The position numbers and the translations under genes were made by a program. A DNA stretch of 57,791 nucleotides from Ignavibacteria bacterium (GTDB taxonomy: Bacteria; Bacteroidota; Ignavibacteria; Tepidaquicellales; OLB5): NCBI GenBank assembly GCA_049516635.1, contig JBEKSX010000008.1, forward strand, positions 1 to 57,791, in the 5' to 3' direction. Shown here piece by piece: positions 13,006-53,810 of the stretch. The stretch's first letter is position 1; each line of letters opens with the position of its first letter. The notes beneath the pieces are model-generated. The model was not told the origin of the DNA. It made no database searches and worked only from the letters and a program-made list of their open reading frames with translations.

Positions 13006-13869
13006 ATGACCGACCTTAAAAATAAGCTGAGACGCCAGATAGAAATAGTAGGTATCTGTTTATCCCAAAATTATCCTCACCCGTTAAAAACCTTTGACCT
13101 TGCTGATCATTTCAACGTGGAAGAGCTGACCATAAAACGGGACCTGCAGGACCTGAGAAGCTCAGGAATAGATATACATTCAACCAAAAAACATGGTGTA
13201 TGCCTTGATAAAGAGATCGATGAAAGTAAGTTGCGCGAGCTGATACACCAATATTCTGCCCTTTGTTCCTCAGATAAATACGTTGAAAAATCAACGCTCT
13301 TGCTGGTTAATAGGCTCGGAACCAAAGCTCTTGCCAATATGGTCACGATACAGATGTGTATAGATGAACATCACGCAGTAAAAATTGACTATGAAAAGGA
13401 GTCGGAGGAAGTGGAGTTCAGCAGGGAAATATTTCCTGTACTGATCTTTCAGAGCGAAGGTTACTGGCGTGTACTTGCAGTGAATCAGGATAAGCTGAAA
13501 CAATTCCATTTGAACAAGATTGTTGAAGCACGGGAGACGCAAAAATCATTTCTGCCTGTAATGAAAGAGAGGATCGAAGACATTTTCAGATACTCCTGGA
13601 GGAGCTGGCTGGGAACAGAAAAATTCGAAGTGAAACTTAAATTCTCACCTTACTGGGCTGAATGGTTAAAACCGAAACAACTCATGGACACCGAGAAATT
13701 TACCGAGCTCCCTGGCGGATCACTGATATTCGAAACCATCGTTAATTCACTTGATGAAATAGCAAGCTGGATAGTAAGCAGAGGCGAAGGGATCACGGTC
13801 TTACTACCGGATGAGCTGAGAGAAAAAGTTATCAAGCTTGCTAAGGGAGTATTGAACAACTATCAATAA
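13006..13869 (+). CDS. HTH + WYL domain transcriptional regulator
   Basis: 287-aa ORF. N-terminal wHTH (FDLADHFNVEELTIKRDLQDLRSSGIDI). Central WYL-like segment (FQSEGYWRVLAVNQDKLKQFHLNKIVEA). C-terminal extension typical of the family (GEGITVLLPDELREKV). Confidence 0.75.
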   Translation: MTDLKNKLRRQIEIVGICLSQNYPHPLKTFDLADHFNVEELTIKRDLQDLRSSGIDIHSTKKHGVCLDKEIDESKLRELIHQYSALCSSDKYVEKSTLLLVNRLGTKALANMVTIQMCIDEHHAVKIDYEKESEEVEFSREIFPVLIFQSEGYWRVLAVNQDKLKQFHLNKIVEARETQKSFLPVMKERIEDIFRYSWRSWLGTEKFEVKLKFSPYWAEWLKPKQLMDTEKFTELPGGSLIFETIVNSLDEIASWIVSRGEGITVLLPDELREKVIKLAKGVLNNYQ

Positions 13870-13899
13870 ATAATCCGCATTCATTATTATCAACGTAAC

Positions 13900-14619
13900 A
13901 TGAAAGCTGTGAATTATCACATATCCGAAGATATATTTAAGCTGTTCCTCGGTTACACCCGTGGTGTACTTTTTTTAAAGAATGTTAAGAATAAAACCTC
14001 TCCTGAAAGATTAACTAACTTAATTAGAGAAGAGGAAAAGGTCATTAGGGAAAAATATAATTTGTATTCTCTGCTCGAGAGCGATCGGATTATTTCCTGG
14101 AGAAATGCTTATATTAAAACAGGAATTAAACCTGGAGAATTCCGCCCTTCAATAGAAGCGATGCTGAGGAGAGTATTAAAGAACCAGCAATTACCGTCTA
14201 TAAATGCCCTGGTAGATATTGGTAATTATTTCTCTTTAAAATATCTGATTCCCATCGGTTGCCATTCCCTCCAAAATATTAATAATGAAATGGCTTTAAG
14301 ATATGCAAACGGCTCGGAAACTTTCATACCGTTTGGACAAAATGAAGCTGATAATCCGTTAAAAGGCGAGATCATTTTCACTGACGGGAATGATGTAATG
14401 ACAAGACGATGGACCTGGAGACAGAGCAATCACAGTATTATCACACTTGATTCTGGATACGTGGAATTCAATATCGATGGTTTGTATCCTGTCACTAAAG
14501 ACGATGTGGATAACATAGGAGAAGAAATGATAAAACTAATTAACGATTTTTTTGATCACCCTTCTCATTCTTTTGAAGTAATAACAAAAGATAACCCGTC
14601 CATAATGCTTGAATATTAG
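13900..14619 (+). CDS. B3/B4 tRNA-binding-domain protein (PheT B3_4-like, stand-alone)
   Basis: 239-aa ORF, 30 nt after the WYL gene. WRNAYIKTGIKPGEFRPSIEAMLRRV...LPSINALVDIGNYFSLKYLIPIGCH resembles stand-alone B3/B4 domain proteins. Confidence 0.7.
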   Translation: MKAVNYHISEDIFKLFLGYTRGVLFLKNVKNKTSPERLTNLIREEEKVIREKYNLYSLLESDRIISWRNAYIKTGIKPGEFRPSIEAMLRRVLKNQQLPSINALVDIGNYFSLKYLIPIGCHSLQNINNEMALRYANGSETFIPFGQNEADNPLKGEIIFTDGNDVMTRRWTWRQSNHSIITLDSGYVEFNIDGLYPVTKDDVDNIGEEMIKLINDFFDHPSHSFEVITKDNPSIMLEY

Positions 14620-25864: not shown

Positions 25865-26414
25865 GTTGCAACCATTTTTTAAAATTATTTTAAAATATAT
25901 AGACTTTTAAAAACAATAAGATTAATTAGATTAGGACCAGTGAGTTGTATGGATATTTAAGAATAGAGAGACTCACTCAATATATGATGTGAGAATGAAA
26001 AAATACTGAGTGTAGAAGTAGAGGATGTATTTTATGGAGTGATTATAGAATATTCATTCTCTCTTTAATAATATTTAAAAGAATAAACTATAAAGCTGAA
26101 TATGATAGTCTATCCAGCCCGAAGAGCCATGAATTTCTATTAGTTGGTGTACTATAATATAATATTACATTTTTAGTATGTCAAGTGTTTTTAATATTAT
26201 GTATTTATAATTGTAAGTAACGAGATTTATATTGGCATATAAATTGTTTAATTGTTAAAAGGAATCTTTGTTTCTTATCGAATTACTAGATATTTAGATG
26301 GTTTTAGTTACTCTTTAATTATTTTTATTGTGTCTATAGGTTAACTTTATATAAACTTTCTTAAAGAAACTGGGTTTCAAATCTTTAAAAATATGTATTG
26401 ACTCTATCCATATA

Positions 26415-26436
26415 TACCCATATATTTATATGGGTA
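26415..26436. promoter_or_regulatory. 22-bp palindrome TACCCATATA-TT-TATATGGGTA (candidate LexA operator) over the dinB promoter
   Basis: Perfect 10-bp inverted arms. Sigma70-like TTGACT (26398-26403), 17-nt spacer, TATATT (26421-26426) inside the palindrome. Confidence 0.65.
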
Positions 26437-27740
26437 TTATGCAAAAGATAAGCTCATCTTTTTTCATCACGAGGGGAGGGGGTAAGGGCAGGAATATATT
26501 CAAGAGAGTTAGATTCATGCCGATTTACTCCTTTCCGCATCATAAAGATCTGAATTATAAGATAGAAAAACATGACAGAAGGTACTTCTTGCACCTCGAT
26601 TTTGATGCTTTTTTCGCTCAGGTTGAACAACGGGATAATCCAAAGCTGAGGGGTAAACCGGTTTCAGTAGGAGGGAACGGGGGTATTAAGGGCATAGTTA
26701 TGACCTGTTCCTATGAAGCCAGGGCTTTGGGAGTTAAGACGGGAATGTCAGTTTTCGAGGCTAAACAGATTTGCCCGGAACTAATTTCCCTGCCCTGCTA
26801 CGGACCCAAATACGAGGCTATCCTATTAAATATTACTGAAGCGTTCATAAAGCTGGTACCGGAAGATTGTATAGAACAATACAGCATAGATGAATGTTTT
26901 CTTGAACTAACCCCGGTTGTAAAGGATTATTTTGATGCAATTAGATTTGCGCTAAAAATAAAGAAATTAGTTAAAAGAATGGAGAATCTCACAGTATCTG
27001 TGGGTTTGTCCTTTAATAAGTCATACGCTAAACTTGCTACTAAGTTTCGCAAACCTGACGGATTATCTGTTATCAGAGAAGAAAACAGACCGGACATTTA
27101 TACGCTTCCTGCAGTAAAATTGTGGGGAGTAGGCAATATGATTGAAAAACGTCTCGCTATGCTTGGAATATTTACAATTGGTGACTTGGCAAACTGCAAT
27201 TTCCACGCTGTCCATAAGGAGTTTGGCATTAACGGAGTAATACTAAGAAAGATTGCAAGAGGAGAGGATACAAGCACCATAGCAACGGGAAAACAAAAAA
27301 GAATAGAAAAATCTTTTAATCATCACCATACTCTTACAGAACCAATCTACAAAAACGAAGATGCAACAGATGAGATTAGGAGGATCGGAGAGTATATGTG
27401 CAGGAAAATGAGATATAAGAATCTTGCAGGTAAACACCTTTTTCTCACATTAAGGTTTGATGATCTTGGTTTTATTTCAGAGGACATCAAGTTATTCAGC
27501 CCAACCAATGACGAAAGAGATATCTTTGAAGCTGCTATGCATCTTTATAAAAGATTTCCAGAACCAGAACCCTTTCACAAGGTCAGGATGTTCGGGATGA
27601 CAATATTTGATCTTCATCCGGTTACAGGATACAATCTCGATCTTTTCAGGAAACAGCCAATTCTGCCTTACAAGGAATTGGATTATCTGAAAGAAAAGTA
27701 TGGGGAAAATATAATAAGGGTAGGTCTTACCAGATTATAA
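26430..27740 (+). CDS. dinB: Y-family DNA polymerase IV
   Basis: LHLDFDAFFAQVEQRDNPKLRGKPVSVGG and SIDECFLE motifs. The start is ambiguous: ATG 26430 lies in the palindrome, and the alternative ATG 26517 (MPIYSF) gives a more typical N-terminus. Confidence 0.85.
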   Translation: MGIMQKISSSFFITRGGGKGRNIFKRVRFMPIYSFPHHKDLNYKIEKHDRRYFLHLDFDAFFAQVEQRDNPKLRGKPVSVGGNGGIKGIVMTCSYEARALGVKTGMSVFEAKQICPELISLPCYGPKYEAILLNITEAFIKLVPEDCIEQYSIDECFLELTPVVKDYFDAIRFALKIKKLVKRMENLTVSVGLSFNKSYAKLATKFRKPDGLSVIREENRPDIYTLPAVKLWGVGNMIEKRLAMLGIFTIGDLANCNFHAVHKEFGINGVILRKIARGEDTSTIATGKQKRIEKSFNHHHTLTEPIYKNEDATDEIRRIGEYMCRKMRYKNLAGKHLFLTLRFDDLGFISEDIKLFSPTNDERDIFEAAMHLYKRFPEPEPFHKVRMFGMTIFDLHPVTGYNLDLFRKQPILPYKELDYLKEKYGENIIRVGLTRL

Positions 27741-28361
27741 TATCTGGTATTTACGCCGGAGTTCAATCACTTTACCCAGGATTTGAAATACTTTTCCCGA
27801 GATAGGTTTAAACTTGACATTAGCAGGTTCAAGATATGCACCGGTTTTCCGTTTCCTCAGCGTTTTTACCGTAGCTTCATCGTCAAGTAAAGCTATTATT
27901 ATCTCGCCATCCTCACAATCATCCTGCTTCTTAACAATTACAATATCGTCATCATATATCCCCGCATCCTTCATACTGCTTCCTTTTACCTTAAGTGCAA
28001 AGATATCCCGTAACGATTTCTTTTTCCTTTCATAAGCTATATATCCTTGAATATTATCCTCTGCGAATATTGGTTCTCCCGCAGCAACACTCCCGTAAAG
28101 CGGAATGACCTCTATGTTCGATTTAAACCGTGATATTTCCAAATTCTCATTCTGATTTACTACCTTTATCCCTCTTGCTTTATCCGGTGATTTTTCCAGA
28201 TACCCCTTTCGTATTAATGCAGATATGTGGTCCTGTACTGTACCAACGATGATATTAAATTTTACTGCTATTTCAAGATAGGTGGGAGGAAAACTATTTG
28301 AACTTATGAATTTCTGGATATACTCAAGTATCTTTTTTTGTTTAGGTGGTAAATTACCCAT
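27735..28361 (-). CDS. lexA: LexA repressor (autocleaving S24 peptidase)
   Basis: 208 aa. N-terminal wHTH (YLEIAVKFNIIVGTVQDHISALIRKGYLEK). Ala-Gly cleavage site (SVAAGEP). Ser nucleophile (KGSSMKDAGI) and Lys (ATVKTLRK). 6-nt tail-to-tail overlap with dinB. Confidence 0.9.
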   Translation of the reverse strand: MGNLPPKQKKILEYIQKFISSNSFPPTYLEIAVKFNIIVGTVQDHISALIRKGYLEKSPDKARGIKVVNQNENLEISRFKSNIEVIPLYGSVAAGEPIFAEDNIQGYIAYERKKKSLRDIFALKVKGSSMKDAGIYDDDIVIVKKQDDCEDGEIIIALLDDEATVKTLRKRKTGAYLEPANVKFKPISGKVFQILGKVIELRRKYQIL

Positions 28362-28375
28362 ATATTAATATGGTA
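28355..28375. promoter_or_regulatory. degenerate copy of the palindrome overlapping the lexA start codon
   Basis: TACCCATATATTAATATGGTA has the same register as the 22-bp palindrome with 3 changes. The lexA ATG (28361..28359) lies inside it. Confidence 0.55.
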
Positions 28376-28441
28376 TATAATGTTTCAAAAATCAAGAGAT
28401 TTGTATAATGCAGAAGATAGGCTATTGCAATATTTTATTAT

Positions 28442-28463
28442 TACCCATATATTTATATGGGTA
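28442..28463. promoter_or_regulatory. second perfect copy of TACCCATATATTTATATGGGTA over the promoter of the lexA-divergent small gene
   Basis: Identical 22-mer to 26415..26436. TTGCAA (28425-28430), 17-nt spacer, TATATT (28448-28453). Confidence 0.65.
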
Positions 28464-28475
28464 TTTATCACCACA

Positions 28476-28736
28476 ATGTATACGCAAAACCAGGTATTTG
28501 AACCGGTAGAAGTAATTGCTTATTTCCATGAACTAAAAATAGAAATTGTTAAATTCAAGTGGAACAACAAAGTCTATAAGGTCAACCAGATGATGAATAC
28601 CTGGAAGATACCCGATGGTGACGGATTCTCATCTCATTTCGTGGTTCTATGTAAAGAAAACGAACTCTTGTGTGAACTATCTTTTAACCATACCGATCTG
28701 AAATGGGAATTAGTGCAGTATGATAGTTTGAGTTGA
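28476..28736 (+). CDS. small soluble protein divergent from lexA (candidate SOS-regulated gene)
   Basis: The ORF track gives 28380..28736, but the first 32 codons read through the operator/promoter. ATG at 28476 (MYTQNQVF...) gives 86 aa. No TM segment and no family recognised. Confidence 0.55.
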   Translation: MYTQNQVFEPVEVIAYFHELKIEIVKFKWNNKVYKVNQMMNTWKIPDGDGFSSHFVVLCKENELLCELSFNHTDLKWELVQYDSLS

Positions 28737-30164: not shown

Positions 30165-30620
30165 TGTTGTTAATAAGATTAATTTATTCGTAATATTTAT
30201 TCAATACGAATATACATTCCCTTAATTTGGAAAGCCAAAGACATTTTATTCGATTTGTGTTGAAGTTTGTAAACTCGAATGGGGACATTTAAGTATTGAT
30301 ACTTCATGATTTATTGTGATAAGATTAAAATTTAAATGCTTTTTTATGACTTATATCATATAGGATGAAGACTTAAATAGGGCTTTGTGGCTTTCTGACC
30401 TTGTTTCCCTCCCTTCTTTATAGAATATTTATTTTTCCACATAAATTATAATCAATCTTTAATACTCATTTACTTTTCTGGAATAATATCCCTGTAACTC
30501 AAACCTTCCAATAAATTTACCAAGAAAGGAGTTTTCTAATGTTAACTACAATTAAAGAATTCGTAATAAGAATTCTTAAGTATATTTACAAACTCATACT
30601 TGAGGACATTTTTAATAGGA

Positions 30621-30744
30621 GATGGTGATGGATTCTCAACTCATTTCGTTGTTCTATGTAAAGAAAACGAACTGTTATGCGAACTCTCTTTTAACCACAC
30701 TGACCTGAAGTGGGAATTGGTGCAGTATGATACTGTGAGTTGAT
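30621..30744 (+). pseudogene. truncated copy (last ~40 codons) of the lexA-divergent small gene
   Basis: Encodes DGDGFSTHFVVLCKENELLCELSFNHTDLKWELVQYDTVS*, aligning with 28612..28736. No in-frame start. Similarity continues ~50 nt past the stop. Confidence 0.7.
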
Positions 30745-52760: not shown

Positions 52761-53810
52761 CTAATATTCTATTTTCACCTTATTTACTGCTTCTCTCAAA
52801 TCTTCTGTTTCGATGTGAACGTACCCCATAGTTGTATTTAAGTTACTGTGACCGGCCAGCTGTTTTGCATAGTTGATGTTTACCCCGTTTCTGATGAGGT
52901 TTGTGATGAACGTGTGCCTCAAACAGTGAAAATGATACTTTTCAGGTAACCCCGCTAGCCTAAGGTAATTCTTGAATTTCTTTGAAACATAGTTCCCATT
53001 AAGTTTGATACCCTTAACACTGACAAATAGGTATCTCTCGGGTTCTGATAGCTCTATTACGTTTCCTGAGCGGTTTAGAATTGATTTTAAAAGCTCGTTC
53101 AGATGATCTGAGATTGGTATGAACCTTATTCTTCCGGTCTTGATTTTGAAATCAGGTTTATTTCTAATGGTAAGGATCATTTCCTGGAAATCAACATCTT
53201 TGAATTGGATATTCATTATCTCATTCAATCTGCAGCCGGTCAGAAGAGCGAAAATTATCAGCTTTTTGAAACGGTTATCTTCAATTAAATCCAATACCCT
53301 CTTCAATTCATCATCACCAAAACTTAATTTCTCTTTCTGCGGTATTGAAAATTGTTTAATGTACTGCATAGGATTGGATTCTAGATATCTCATTCTTACA
53401 GCATAATTGAAAACTGCTTTCAGGGTCCTGATCTCGATATTTACCGAGGTCTTACTAACCTCTCTGACTCTGACATTCTTATAATTCTCAAAGTCTTTGG
53501 GATTGTACAAATGAATCTCACGATTCCCCTGAATCCTCAACAGATTATTAACCGCGTTTCCGTAAATTATCAGTGTTTTGGAGGTGAAATTTGATTCAGC
53601 AAACTCGCAAATCTCTTTAGCAAGATTAGTAAGAAACCATCTGGTTTGCTTAATTCTGTCTACACTCGATCTGTTTCGAGCGAAATTCCAAAGGAACCTT
53701 TCGGCTTCCTTTTTAGTCCTTTTTCCTGTTGAGATTTTTGTTCTTTTACCCGTGGAGGGGTTGACGAAATACAGGTCATAGAGACCTTTATACCCTTTTG
53801 AGATGAACAT
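52761..53810 (-). CDS. tyrosine recombinase / phage-type integrase
   Basis: 349 aa. LLTGCRLNEI (Arg), HCLRHTFITNLIRNG (H-x-x-R), LAGHSNLNTTMGYVH (His/Tyr). 104 nt from the tRNA-Lys 3' end. Confidence 0.9.
   Translation of the reverse strand: MFISKGYKGLYDLYFVNPSTGKRTKISTGKRTKKEAERFLWNFARNRSSVDRIKQTRWFLTNLAKEICEFAESNFTSKTLIIYGNAVNNLLRIQGNREIHLYNPKDFENYKNVRVREVSKTSVNIEIRTLKAVFNYAVRMRYLESNPMQYIKQFSIPQKEKLSFGDDELKRVLDLIEDNRFKKLIIFALLTGCRLNEIMNIQFKDVDFQEMILTIRNKPDFKIKTGRIRFIPISDHLNELLKSILNRSGNVIELSEPERYLFVSVKGIKLNGNYVSKKFKNYLRLAGLPEKYHFHCLRHTFITNLIRNGVNINYAKQLAGHSNLNTTMGYVHIETEDLREAVNKVKIEY

What the first reader, a model, noticed from the sequence alone, without database searches (positions are those of the whole stretch)
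26398..28463. Three copies of a 22-bp palindrome over the dinB, lexA and small-gene promoters: candidate non-canonical LexA operator
Seen in sequence:
- TACCCATATA-TT-TATATGGGTA occurs as a perfect 22-mer at 26415..26436 and 28442..28463.
- A same-register degenerate copy (TACCCATATATTAATATGGTA) occurs at 28355..28375.
- In both perfect cases a sigma70-like -35 (TTGACT / TTGCAA) lies exactly 17 nt upstream of a TATATT that sits inside the palindrome.
- The degenerate copy covers the lexA start codon. A TTGATT-17 nt-CATATT promoter on the minus strand would place the transcription start at or next to the ATG, so lexA may be leaderless.

Established knowledge: LexA autoregulates and represses dinB by binding palindromic operators that overlap promoters. 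The classical boxes are CTGT-N8-ACAG (E. coli type) and GAAC-N4-GTTC (Gram-positive type). This motif matches neither.

Inference: this is the LexA box of this lineage, or of this island-borne LexA.
Basis: partly seen in the sequence, partly recalled or inferred. Interest (0 to 1): 0.7.

Follow-up and report, generated by a model that had tools for sequence, protein, structure and literature searches.

The report
LexA operator of Ignavibacteria SOS genes
Three copies of a palindrome over the lexA, dinB and small-gene promoters are very probably the LexA (DNA-damage repressor) binding sites of the bacterial class Ignavibacteria: they have the layout of the E. coli SOS box but two different bases in each arm, and the LexA recognition helix changes to match.

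Summary
TACCCATATATTTATATGGGTA occurs perfectly at 26415-26436 and 28442-28463, and a weaker copy lies at 28355-28375. All three share the core CCATAT-N4-ATATGG.

The window is ordinary chromosome of a peat or wetland Ignavibacteria bacterium, not an island. The 208-aa protein is a canonical, self-cleaving LexA.

Comparative evidence supports a LexA operator:
- A core CCnTA-N6-TAnGG lies at the lexA start in about 75 of 80 Ignavibacteria genomes.
- It lies just before dinB in six lineages, four of them with dinB unlinked from lexA.
- It lies in the promoter of the 86-aa gene in six lineages, three of them unlinked.
- It is almost absent elsewhere: 103 hits against about 9 expected in 847 kb.

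The consensus TACCATATATATATATGGTA is the E. coli box TACTGTATATATATACAGTA with TG changed to CA in each arm. Sister lineages use CTAT or CTGT, and their recognition helices change in step (GT, GM, NA, the last as in E. coli).

Not shown: LexA binding, damage induction, and the regulon beyond these three genes. I found no published Ignavibacteria LexA box. Verdict: a new variant of a known kind, confidence about 0.87.

The parts
26415..26436 (.). Operator over the dinB promoter: perfect 22-bp palindrome TACCCATATATTTATATGGGTA (core CCATAT-N4-ATATGG at 26418-26433).
   Evidence: Equivalent sites lie directly before dinB in L001, L181, L183, L185 and L186.
26398..26426 (+). Putative dinB promoter: -35 TTGACT (26398-26403), 17 nt, -10 TATATT (26421-26426). 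The -10 and the expected transcription start lie inside the operator.
   Evidence: 10 of 12 match. Function is inferred.
26406..26414 (+). Extra upstream half-site-like ATCCATATA (CCATAT at 26408-26413), 10 nt before the left arm. Weak feature, not conserved in L001.
   Evidence: A similar but differently spaced extra half-site occurs in L185.
26439..27740 (+). dinB (Y-family DNA polymerase IV-like, 433 aa) with a conserved N-terminal extension of about 45 aa. The conserved start is ATG 26439, 3 nt after the operator. The longer ORF from 26430 begins inside the palindrome.
   Evidence: Pfam IMS, IMS_C and IMS_HHH_1. NCBIfam Pol IV models match, below equivalog cut-offs. The N-terminus MQKISSSFF is shared with L001 and other orthologues.
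27735..28361 (-). lexA, 208 aa. Canonical LexA with a winged-helix DNA-binding domain and an S24 self-cleaving peptidase domain. Its 3' end overlaps dinB convergently by 6 bp.
   Evidence: PF01726 and PF00717. TIGR00498 scores 175 bits against a cut-off of 111. Ala-Gly cleavage site, Ser129 and Lys166 are invariant. Best PDB match is E. coli LexA, E about 1e-29.
28355..28375 (.). Operator over the lexA -10, transcription start and start codon: TACCCATATATTAATATGGTA (core at 28358-28373). On the minus strand the arm ATATGGG holds the lexA ATG.
   Evidence: CCATA-N6-TATGG lies at the same place, 12 nt before the ATG, in 60 of 80 Ignavibacteria lexA loci, and about 15 more carry a one-base variant.
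28367..28395 (-). Putative lexA promoter: -35 TTGATT (28395-28390), 17 nt, -10 CATATT (28372-28367), 5 nt, ATG. This implies a leaderless mRNA.
   Evidence: Sequence. The layout TTGACA-17-CATATT-5-ATG is conserved class-wide. The transcription start is inferred, not measured.
28442..28463 (.). Operator over the promoter of the 86-aa gene: perfect 22-bp palindrome, centred 87 bp from the centre of the lexA operator.
   Evidence: Equivalent sites occur in L001 and L005 (linked to lexA) and in L176, L177 and L178 (unlinked from lexA).
28425..28453 (+). Putative promoter of the small gene: -35 TTGCAA, 17 nt, -10 TATATT, with the -10 inside the operator.
   Evidence: The same TTGCAA-17-TATATT is present in L001.
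28476..28736 (+). Small gene, 86 aa, transcribed divergently from lexA. It is an all-beta protein of unknown function found only in Ignavibacteria and is a candidate third member of the regulon.
   Evidence: 36 homologues, all unnamed. No Pfam, NCBIfam or PHROG match. AlphaFold model pLDDT 93 with eight strands, and no PDB match at E<0.001.

Best explanation
The three palindromes are operators of the chromosomal LexA repressor of an Ignavibacteria bacterium.

Proposed mechanism:
1. A LexA dimer places its two winged-helix domains on the inverted half-sites TACC(C)ATA / TAT(G)GGTA. The class-wide core is CCnTA-N6-TAnGG, that is CCAT-N8-ATGG.
2. Each site covers the -10 hexamer and the transcription start. 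At lexA it also covers the start codon of a probably leaderless mRNA. Bound LexA therefore blocks RNA polymerase at lexA (autoregulation), dinB (translesion polymerase) and a divergent 86-aa gene.
3. After DNA damage, RecA-stimulated self-cleavage at Ala94-Gly95 by Ser129/Lys166 would release the dimer and switch on all three genes.

The operator has the architecture of the E. coli SOS box, with the two inner bases of each arm changed. The change matches substitutions at the base-contacting start of the recognition helix (E. coli N41-A42 becomes G-T here).

Shown here: sequence, position, conservation and covariation. Inferred: binding, repression, induction and leaderless transcription.
For: 1. 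The repressor is a true LexA. It has PF01726 and PF00717 and passes the TIGR00498 equivalog model. The cleavage site and the Ser/Lys dyad are invariant in 24 homologues. It aligns with E. coli LexA over residues 4-188 of 208.

2. Autoregulatory position. CCATA-N6-TATGG lies 12 nt before the lexA ATG in 60 of 80 genome loci, and about 15 more have a one-base variant. In L082 and L175 the palindrome lies between -35 and -10 or upstream of the ATG. It is therefore not a by-product of the start codon.

3. The same motif occurs at a canonical SOS gene. dinB has it directly before its ATG in the window, L001, L181/182, L183/184, L185 and L186. In the last four, dinB is far from lexA. L181 and L185 come from the same MAGs as the lexA loci L024 and L014.

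4. The same motif occurs at the small gene, both when linked to lexA (window, L001, L005) and when unlinked (L176-L178, 20-bp palindromes TACCTTAATTTATTAAGGTA and TACCCTAAATTATTACGGTA). L176 is from the same MAG as L034.

5. Specificity. The pattern CC.TA-N6-TA.GG gives 103 hits in 847 kb against about 9.3 expected. The only hit outside these promoters, seen in four near-identical loci, lies inside lexA coding sequence.

6. Helix and operator vary together. CCAT sites go with a 'GTxQDH' helix in about 57 loci where the helix could be read, CTAT with 'GMVQQV' (L077, L175), and CTGT with 'NAIQQT' (L179), like E. coli 'NAAEEH'. E. coli LexA reads CTGT mainly through S39, N41, A42 and E45 (PMC11442139).

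7. The symmetrised consensus of 16 sites, TTACCATATATATATATGGTAA, equals the E. coli consensus apart from two bases per arm.

8. In L005/L006 dinB is broken into three pieces and has lost the site.
Against: - There is no biochemical or expression evidence. No RNA runs hold this stretch.
- Only three gene families could be examined. No recA, uvrA, ruv or similar gene lies in the window or in the fetched loci, so a wider SOS regulon is unproven.
- The strict 22-mer scan of metagenome contigs returned only 6 unrelated hits and added nothing.
- At lexA, part of the conservation could come from the -10 hexamer and the ATG themselves.
- The non-CCAT specificity classes rest on few lineages: L077, L175, L081 and L179.
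- In L179 the CTGT boxes were seen only at lexA, not at dinB or the small gene.
Confidence: 0.87

Rival explanations
1. The palindromes are operators of a different dimeric regulator, not LexA. Candidates are another helix-turn-helix repressor encoded elsewhere, or the 86-aa protein acting on its own and neighbouring promoters.
For: No binding data exist. The small gene always carries the site. Only three gene families are known to have it.
Against: - The motif type changes together with the LexA recognition helix across lineages.
- It sits on lexA's own promoter almost universally.
- Its geometry equals the E. coli LexA box, and one lineage with E. coli-like N-A helix residues has a literal CTGT-N8-ACAG box.
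- The 86-aa protein is a compact all-beta fold with no DNA-binding signature.
- dinB loci unlinked from the small gene still have the site.
Confidence: 0.07
2. The palindromes are not regulatory sites. They are a by-product of AT-rich -10 elements, leaderless start contexts (TATGG) and chance symmetry.
For: The sites overlap TATATT or CATATT hexamers and, at lexA, the ATG. Sigma-70-like matches are at chance frequency in the region.
Against: - The invariant CC/GG and the T before the ATG are not required by promoter or start-codon function.
- Perfect 20-22 bp dyads recur at three unrelated gene families, at varying distances from the -10 and the ATG.
- There are 103 hits against about 9 expected, confined to these promoters.
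Confidence: 0.04
3. The 22-mer is a small dispersed repeat (REP- or MITE-like), or a hairpin acting at the RNA or DNA level.
For: There are two identical copies 2 kb apart, and the sequence could form a hairpin.
Against: - There are only three copies in 57.8 kb, all at promoters.
- There are no shared flanks beyond 24 nt.
- The strict palindrome occurs in just 6 unrelated metagenome contigs.
- Viral-contig hits to the looser pattern look like chance.
- Orthologous sites diverge in sequence while keeping the dyad core.
Confidence: 0.02

Closest known systems
E. coli-type (Gamma/Betaproteobacteria) SOS box, CTGT-N8-ACAG, consensus TACTGTATATATATACAGTA
   Same: Bound by a canonical LexA with a winged-helix domain and an S24 peptidase domain. 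Shares the 16-bp dyad of 4-N8-4, the AT-rich (TA)n spacer and the TAC...GTA outer flanks. Overlaps the -10 and transcription start of lexA and dinB. Autoregulation is present. One Ignavibacteria MAG (L179) even carries a literal TACTGTATATTTATACAGTG before lexA.
   Different: The two inner bases of each arm differ: CCAT/ATGG instead of CTGT/ACAG, and the third base is loosely specified (A>T>C/G). Helix residues equivalent to E. coli S39, N41, A42 and E45 are deleted, G, T and D. The phylum is distant (FCB group). The lexA site includes the start codon of a probably leaderless mRNA.
Balneolaeota LexA-binding motif TTACACATATTTTWTACATA (PMC7739468)
   Same: Canonical LexA in a neighbouring FCB-group phylum. 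The left half-site TTACACATAT closely resembles TTACCCATAT here. The motif is AT-rich, about 20 bp long, and is found at lexA and translesion-polymerase promoters.
   Different: The Balneolaeota motif is described as a direct repeat. The Ignavibacteria sites are clear inverted repeats (perfect 10+10 bp here).
Bacteroidetes non-canonical LexA-like repressors with GGA-N5-TCC and CTAA-N5-TTAG motifs (PMC8565304)
   Same: FCB-group SOS-type control of dinB, with an autoregulated S24-peptidase repressor and palindromic operators.
   Different: Those repressors have a lambda CI-like HTH domain and are not LexA homologues in the DNA-binding domain. The protein here has PF01726 and passes TIGR00498. 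The motifs are unrelated in sequence and spacing.
Gram-positive Cheo box GAAC-N4-GTTC
   Same: Palindromic LexA operator overlapping promoters. In several Gram-positive bacteria lexA is divergent from a small SOS gene (recalled from memory, for example yneA in B. subtilis).
   Different: The half-site and the spacing are different. No GAAC/GTTC is present in the sites.

Membership tests
LexA repressor (protein) | N-terminal LexA winged-helix DNA-binding domain | tested here: met
   PF01726, E 3.8e-14, residues 1-64. TIGR00498 lexA equivalog, 175.3 bits against a cut-off of 110.95.
LexA repressor (protein) | C-terminal S24 peptidase domain with Ser/Lys dyad and Ala-Gly cleavage site | tested here: met
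   PF00717, E 1.6e-28. A94-G95, S129 and K166 are invariant in 24 homologues. They align with the E. coli VAAGEP, GMSM and TVK motifs.
LexA operator (SOS box, generic) | Dyad-symmetric site suited to a LexA dimer | tested here: met
   10+10 bp inverted arms at two sites. The 16-bp core is exact in all three.
LexA operator (SOS box, generic) | Present in lexA's own promoter (autoregulation) | tested here: met
   Site at 28355-28375 over the -10, transcription start and ATG. Conserved in about 75 of 80 lexA loci.
LexA operator (SOS box, generic) | Present at promoters of DNA-damage genes and conserved in orthologues | tested here: met
   Found at dinB in six lineages, four of them unlinked from lexA. 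The site is lost where dinB is a pseudogene.
LexA operator (SOS box, generic) | Present at further SOS genes genome-wide (recA, uvrA, ruvAB and others) | not testable with these tools
   No such genes lie in the window or in the fetched loci. The metagenome motif scan was uninformative.
LexA operator (SOS box, generic) | Specific binding by LexA, and derepression after DNA damage | not testable with these tools
   This needs EMSA or footprinting and expression data. No RNA runs hold this stretch.
E. coli-type SOS box CTGT-N8-ACAG | CTGT / ACAG tetranucleotides | tested here: not met
   The arms read CCAT / ATGG in the window and in most Ignavibacteria. Only L179 has CTGT/ACAG.
E. coli-type SOS box CTGT-N8-ACAG | 4-N8-4 spacing, AT-rich spacer, TAC..GTA flanks | tested here: met
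   The symmetrised consensus TTACCATATATATATATGGTAA compares with TACTGTATATATATACAGTA. In the window itself the flanks are TAC-C..G-GTA, one base further out.
Gram-positive box GAAC-N4-GTTC | GAAC / GTTC arms with a 4-bp spacer | tested here: not met
   Absent from all three sites.
Balneolaeota LexA motif | Direct repeat of TTACACATA-like units | tested here: not met
   The half-site is similar, but the second half is inverted, not direct (the motif is from PMC7739468).
Bacteroidetes non-canonical LexA system | CI-like HTH repressor with GGA-N5-TCC or CTAA-N5-TTAG | tested here: not met
   The repressor has the canonical LexA domain. The motifs do not match.

The most novel reading that the evidence does not exclude
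Within one bacterial class, LexA specificity has moved stepwise along CTGT, CTAT and CCAT. The operator architecture stays constant, and at each step the two residues at the start of the recognition helix are replaced (N-A, G-M, G-T). If so, Ignavibacteria would offer a natural, ordered series showing how a global repressor and its operators change specificity without losing the regulon. It would also link the E. coli-type SOS box to an FCB-group lineage, through either shared ancestry or convergence. In addition, the regulon would include a class-specific 86-aa all-beta protein with no structural relative, as a new SOS effector.
Probability: 0.45. Interest if true: 0.75.

Novelty: new variant of a known kind. 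Interest (0 to 1): 0.58.

Why it matters
LexA is the textbook case of a global repressor whose binding motif has changed repeatedly during evolution. How the repressor and its operators change together without collapse of the SOS response is still debated (PMC8565304 reviews 17 known motifs and a duplication-and-replacement model).

This locus adds a LexA box for a class, Ignavibacteria, where I found none described. The box is one step away from the E. coli box. Close relatives carry intermediate (CTAT) and E. coli-like (CTGT) versions with matching recognition-helix changes.

That makes specific experiments possible. Swapping G-T and N-A in the helix should swap CCAT and CTGT preference.

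The locus also gives a motif for annotating SOS regulons in the many uncultured Ignavibacteria genomes. It points to an uncharacterised small protein as a damage-induced effector. It shows an operator built into the start codon of a leaderless lexA, which constrains the second codon to begin with G.

Tried and rejected
1. Regulon search by motif.
- The pattern ACCCATATWWWWATATGG in viral contigs gave 78 hits in unrelated contexts, consistent with chance.
- I therefore used the strict 22-mer TACCCATATWWWWATATGGGTA for the single metagenome scan. It returned 6 unrelated, partly simple-repeat contigs and no relatives.
- The wider regulon stays untested.

2. RNA evidence for transcription starts. 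No RNA run holds this stretch. DNA runs show only that it comes from peat and wetland metagenomes.

3. Function of the 86-aa protein. There is no Pfam, NCBIfam or PHROG family. The confident AlphaFold model has no significant PDB match, with best TM-scores about 0.4 to lipocalin- or monellin-like sheets.

4. 'Island-borne LexA' is rejected. The neighbours are T9SS cargo proteins, an Nramp transporter, a TonB receptor and ATP synthase. The only integrase is about 24 kb from lexA (52761-53810). Synteny is conserved in relatives.

5. The extra half-site at 26406-26414 is rejected as a conserved third half-site. It is absent in L001 and differently spaced in L185.

6. SRAP as a regulon member is rejected. 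The SRAP gene lies upstream of dinB in L001 and shows no site.

7. Literature. No paper links Ignavibacteria to a LexA box, and none contains the motif. The primary paper on the LexA-DNA structure was not held. The contact residues are cited from a review.
Full report
**Observation.** TACCCATATATTTATATGGGTA occurs without mismatch at 26415-26436 and 28442-28463, and no such match appeared in 100 dinucleotide-preserving shuffles. It is a 10+10 bp inverted repeat around a central TT. The third copy, TACCCATATATTAATATGGTA at 28355-28375, differs at four positions in an ungapped 22-nt register. Its 16-bp core CCATAT-N4-ATATGG is exact, as in the other two. The repeat finder groups the three as one family with no shared flank beyond 24 nt. 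CCCATATA occurs only once more in the window.

**Genes.**
- ORF 27735-28361(-) is a canonical LexA. It has PF01726 and PF00717. It scores 175 bits on the TIGR00498 equivalog model against a cut-off of 111. Its best solved relatives are E. coli LexA structures, at E about 1e-29.
- The Ala94-Gly95 cleavage site, Ser129 and Lys166 are invariant in an alignment of 24 homologues.
- ORF 26439-27740(+) is a Y-family polymerase of the DinB/Pol IV type. It has an N-terminal extension of about 45 residues beginning MQKISSSFF. Relatives share this extension, which fixes the start at 26439, three bases after the palindrome.
- ORF 28476-28736(+) encodes an 86-aa protein with no family assignment.

**Origin.**
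- LexA homologues at 55-84% identity are annotated Ignavibacteria, and some lie on contigs of up to 3.6 Mb.
- The stretch is held by peat and wetland metagenome runs.
- The rest of the window encodes T9SS-tailed surface proteins, TPR proteins, an Nramp transporter, a TonB-dependent receptor, ABC transporters, an aquaporin and ATP synthase subunits.
- The order small gene, lexA, dinB is kept in relatives with 84%, 71% and 52% identical LexA.
- This is the chromosomal LexA of the class, not an island gene.

**Promoters.**
- The scan finds TTGACT-17-TATATT (26398-26426) and TTGCAA-17-TATATT (28425-28453), each with the -10 inside the palindrome. Such matches are at chance frequency in this AT-rich region. 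The small-gene promoter is, however, conserved in L001.
- For lexA, TTGATT (28395-28390), 17 nt, CATATT (28372-28367), 5 nt, ATG is a weaker copy of a layout seen across the class. Most of 80 genome loci read TTGACA-17-(TG)cCATATT-5-ATG.
- This places the transcription start at or next to the A of the ATG, so lexA is probably leaderless. That is an inference, because no RNA run holds this stretch.

**Is it an operator, and whose? Five lines of comparative evidence.**

1. *The lexA promoter.* CCATA-N6-TATGG lies 12 nt before the lexA ATG in 60 of 80 loci.
   - Nine more read TATGC, in lineages whose LexA begins Met-His. Five read CCATA-N6-TAAGG 40 nt upstream, and one more has a single mismatch.
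   - The invariant C before CATATT and the invariant T before the ATG are not needed for promoter or start-codon function.
   - In L082 (45% LexA identity) a perfect TACCATAAATATTTATGGTA lies between -35 and -10, away from the ATG.

2. *dinB.* A site lies directly before the dinB ATG in six lineages:
   - window: TACCCATATATTTATATGGGTA
   - L001: TACCATAAATATATATGGTA
   - L181/182: TACCTTATAAATTTAAGGCA
   - L183/184: TACCATATATCATTACGGTA
   - L185: TGCCATAAATATATATGGTA
   - L186: TACCTTAAATTATTAAGGTA

   In the last four, dinB is not near lexA. L181 and L185 belong to the same MAGs as the lexA loci L024 and L014. Where dinB is broken into three pieces (L005 and L006, two independent assemblies), no site remains.

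3. *The small gene.* It carries the site when linked to lexA (window, L001, L005). It also carries a 20-bp palindrome when unlinked (L176 TACCTTAATTTATTAAGGTA; L177 and L178 TACCCTAAATTATTACGGTA). L176 is from the same MAG as lexA locus L034.

4. *Specificity.* The pattern CC.TA-N6-TA.GG gives 103 hits in 847 kb of Ignavibacteria DNA against about 9.3 expected from composition. The only hit outside these promoters, present in four near-identical loci, lies inside lexA coding sequence.

5. *Covariation with the LexA recognition helix*.
   - About 57 loci where the helix could be read have CCAT/ATGG sites and the helix xGTxQDH.
   - L077 and L175 share the small gene-lexA-dinB synteny. They have TACTATA-N6-TATAGTA-type sites at lexA, dinB and the small gene, and the helix GMVQQV.
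   - L179 has TACTGTATATTTATACAGTG, a literal E. coli-type box, before lexA. Its helix NAIQQT shares Asn-Ala with E. coli NAAEEH.
   - In E. coli, CTGT is read mainly by S39, N41, A42 and E45 (review PMC11442139). In the window LexA these positions are deleted, Gly, Thr and Asp.

**Relation to known boxes.**
- Symmetrising 16 sites from different lineages and genes gives TTACCATATATATATATGGTAA. CC, T and A (mirrored as T, A and GG) are invariant, and the base between CC and TA is variable.
- The E. coli consensus is TACTGTATATATATACAGTA (established knowledge; CTGT-N8-ACAG is quoted in PMC8565304). The two are identical in length, spacing, spacer composition and outer TAC/GTA. They differ only in the two inner bases of each arm.
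- The perfect 22-mer with CCC/GGG is particular to this species and its nearest relatives. The 84%-identity relative already has GGT on one side of each site.
- The Balneolaeota LexA motif TTACACATATTTTWTACATA has a similar left half but is described as a direct repeat (PMC7739468).
- The Bacteroidetes GGA-N5-TCC and CTAA-N5-TTAG motifs belong to non-homologous CI-like repressors (PMC8565304).
- I found no paper on an Ignavibacteria LexA box and none containing this motif.

**Mechanism proposed.** A LexA dimer bound at each site covers the -10 hexamer and the transcription start, and at lexA also the first codons. It excludes RNA polymerase. RecA-stimulated self-cleavage after DNA damage would then derepress lexA, dinB and the small gene. 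The two operators in the lexA/small-gene intergenic region are centred 87 bp apart. Conservation, position and covariation are shown here. Binding, repression, induction and leaderless transcription are inferred.

**Limits.** Only three gene families could be tested. No recA, uvr or ruv gene is in the window or in the fetched loci. The motif scans of viral and metagenome contigs gave only chance-like hits. The regulon may therefore be minimal or much larger. The CTAT and CTGT classes rest on few lineages, and in L179 the CTGT boxes were seen only at lexA.

**The small protein.** The family has 36 members, all from Ignavibacteria-type contigs and all 83-99 aa apart from one 118-aa entry. AlphaFold gives a confident eight-strand all-beta model (pLDDT 93, pTM 0.84). 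It has no significant PDB match. Its function is unknown. Its constant association with the operator makes it a candidate SOS effector.

**Verdict.** This is a real feature, and very probably the LexA operator of Ignavibacteria. It is a new sequence variant of the E. coli-type SOS box in a class where none was described. Confidence is about 0.87. Interest is moderate to good, mainly because of the within-class series of helix and operator changes.

Noticed in passing
window 28476-28736 (+): 86-aa protein family found only in Ignavibacteria (36 homologues). The AlphaFold model is a confident eight-strand all-beta fold (pLDDT 93) with no PDB match and no Pfam, NCBIfam or PHROG family. Its promoter carries the operator in every locus checked from CCAT- and CTAT-type lineages; none was seen before the L179 copy.
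   Followed up: partly
window 30600-30743 (+): Truncated second copy of the small gene. It covers only the C-terminal 41 or so residues (GDGFSTHFVVLCKENELLCELSFNHTDLKWELVQYD) and is about 90% identical to the full copy. There is no operator nearby. It is probably a pseudogene remnant and is also present in the near-identical contig L171.
   Followed up: partly
window 26439-26590 (+): dinB has a conserved N-terminal extension of about 45 residues (MQKISSSFFITRGGGKG...) before the catalytic LHLDFDAFFAQVE motif. Ignavibacteria orthologues share it. The NCBIfam Pol IV equivalog models do not cover it: matches begin at residue 43-51 and score below cut-off.
   Followed up: partly
window 27728-27749: A 22-nt palindrome TACCAGAT-TATAAT-ATCTGGTA sits where dinB and lexA overlap convergently by 6 bp. 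It has TACC/GGTA ends but a spacing 2 bp too long for the operator core. It may be a bidirectional terminator hairpin.
   Followed up: no
L179 4191-4230 (MAG JAFLBX010000002.1): An Ignavibacteria MAG carries a literal E. coli-type SOS box TACTGTATATTTATACAGTG, plus an overlapping second copy, before lexA. Its LexA recognition helix begins Asn-Ala, as in E. coli.
   Followed up: partly
L077 3600-3740 and 6290-6330; L175 7157, 9074, 9417, 9965: A sister lineage with the same small gene-lexA-dinB synteny uses TACTATA-N6-TATAGTA-type sites (four in the L175 cluster). Its LexA helix is GMVQQV.
   Followed up: partly
L005 2129-3418 and L006: dinB is split into three reading frames in two independent assemblies of a relative with 71% identical LexA. 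The operator upstream of it is gone, while the lexA and small-gene operators are intact.
   Followed up: partly
L001 12265-12939: In the relative with 84% identical LexA, an SOS-response-associated peptidase (SRAP/YedK) gene lies upstream of dinB. The window has no such gene there. No operator was seen before it.
   Followed up: partly
window 13006-14619 (+): An HTH_11-WYL-WCX regulator, followed by a B3_4-domain protein. It has the domain type of PafBC/DriD, which control LexA-independent DNA-damage responses (recalled from memory).
   Followed up: no
window 52761-53810 (-): A tyrosine recombinase (phage integrase family) lies next to the ATP synthase beta and epsilon genes, about 24 kb from lexA. 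No link to the finding.
   Followed up: no
L056 and L061 3939 (Ignavibacterium lineage): A second generalised site (CCTTA-N6-TATGG) lies 50 bp upstream of the lexA-start site. This suggests two operators at lexA in the Ignavibacterium album group.
   Followed up: no
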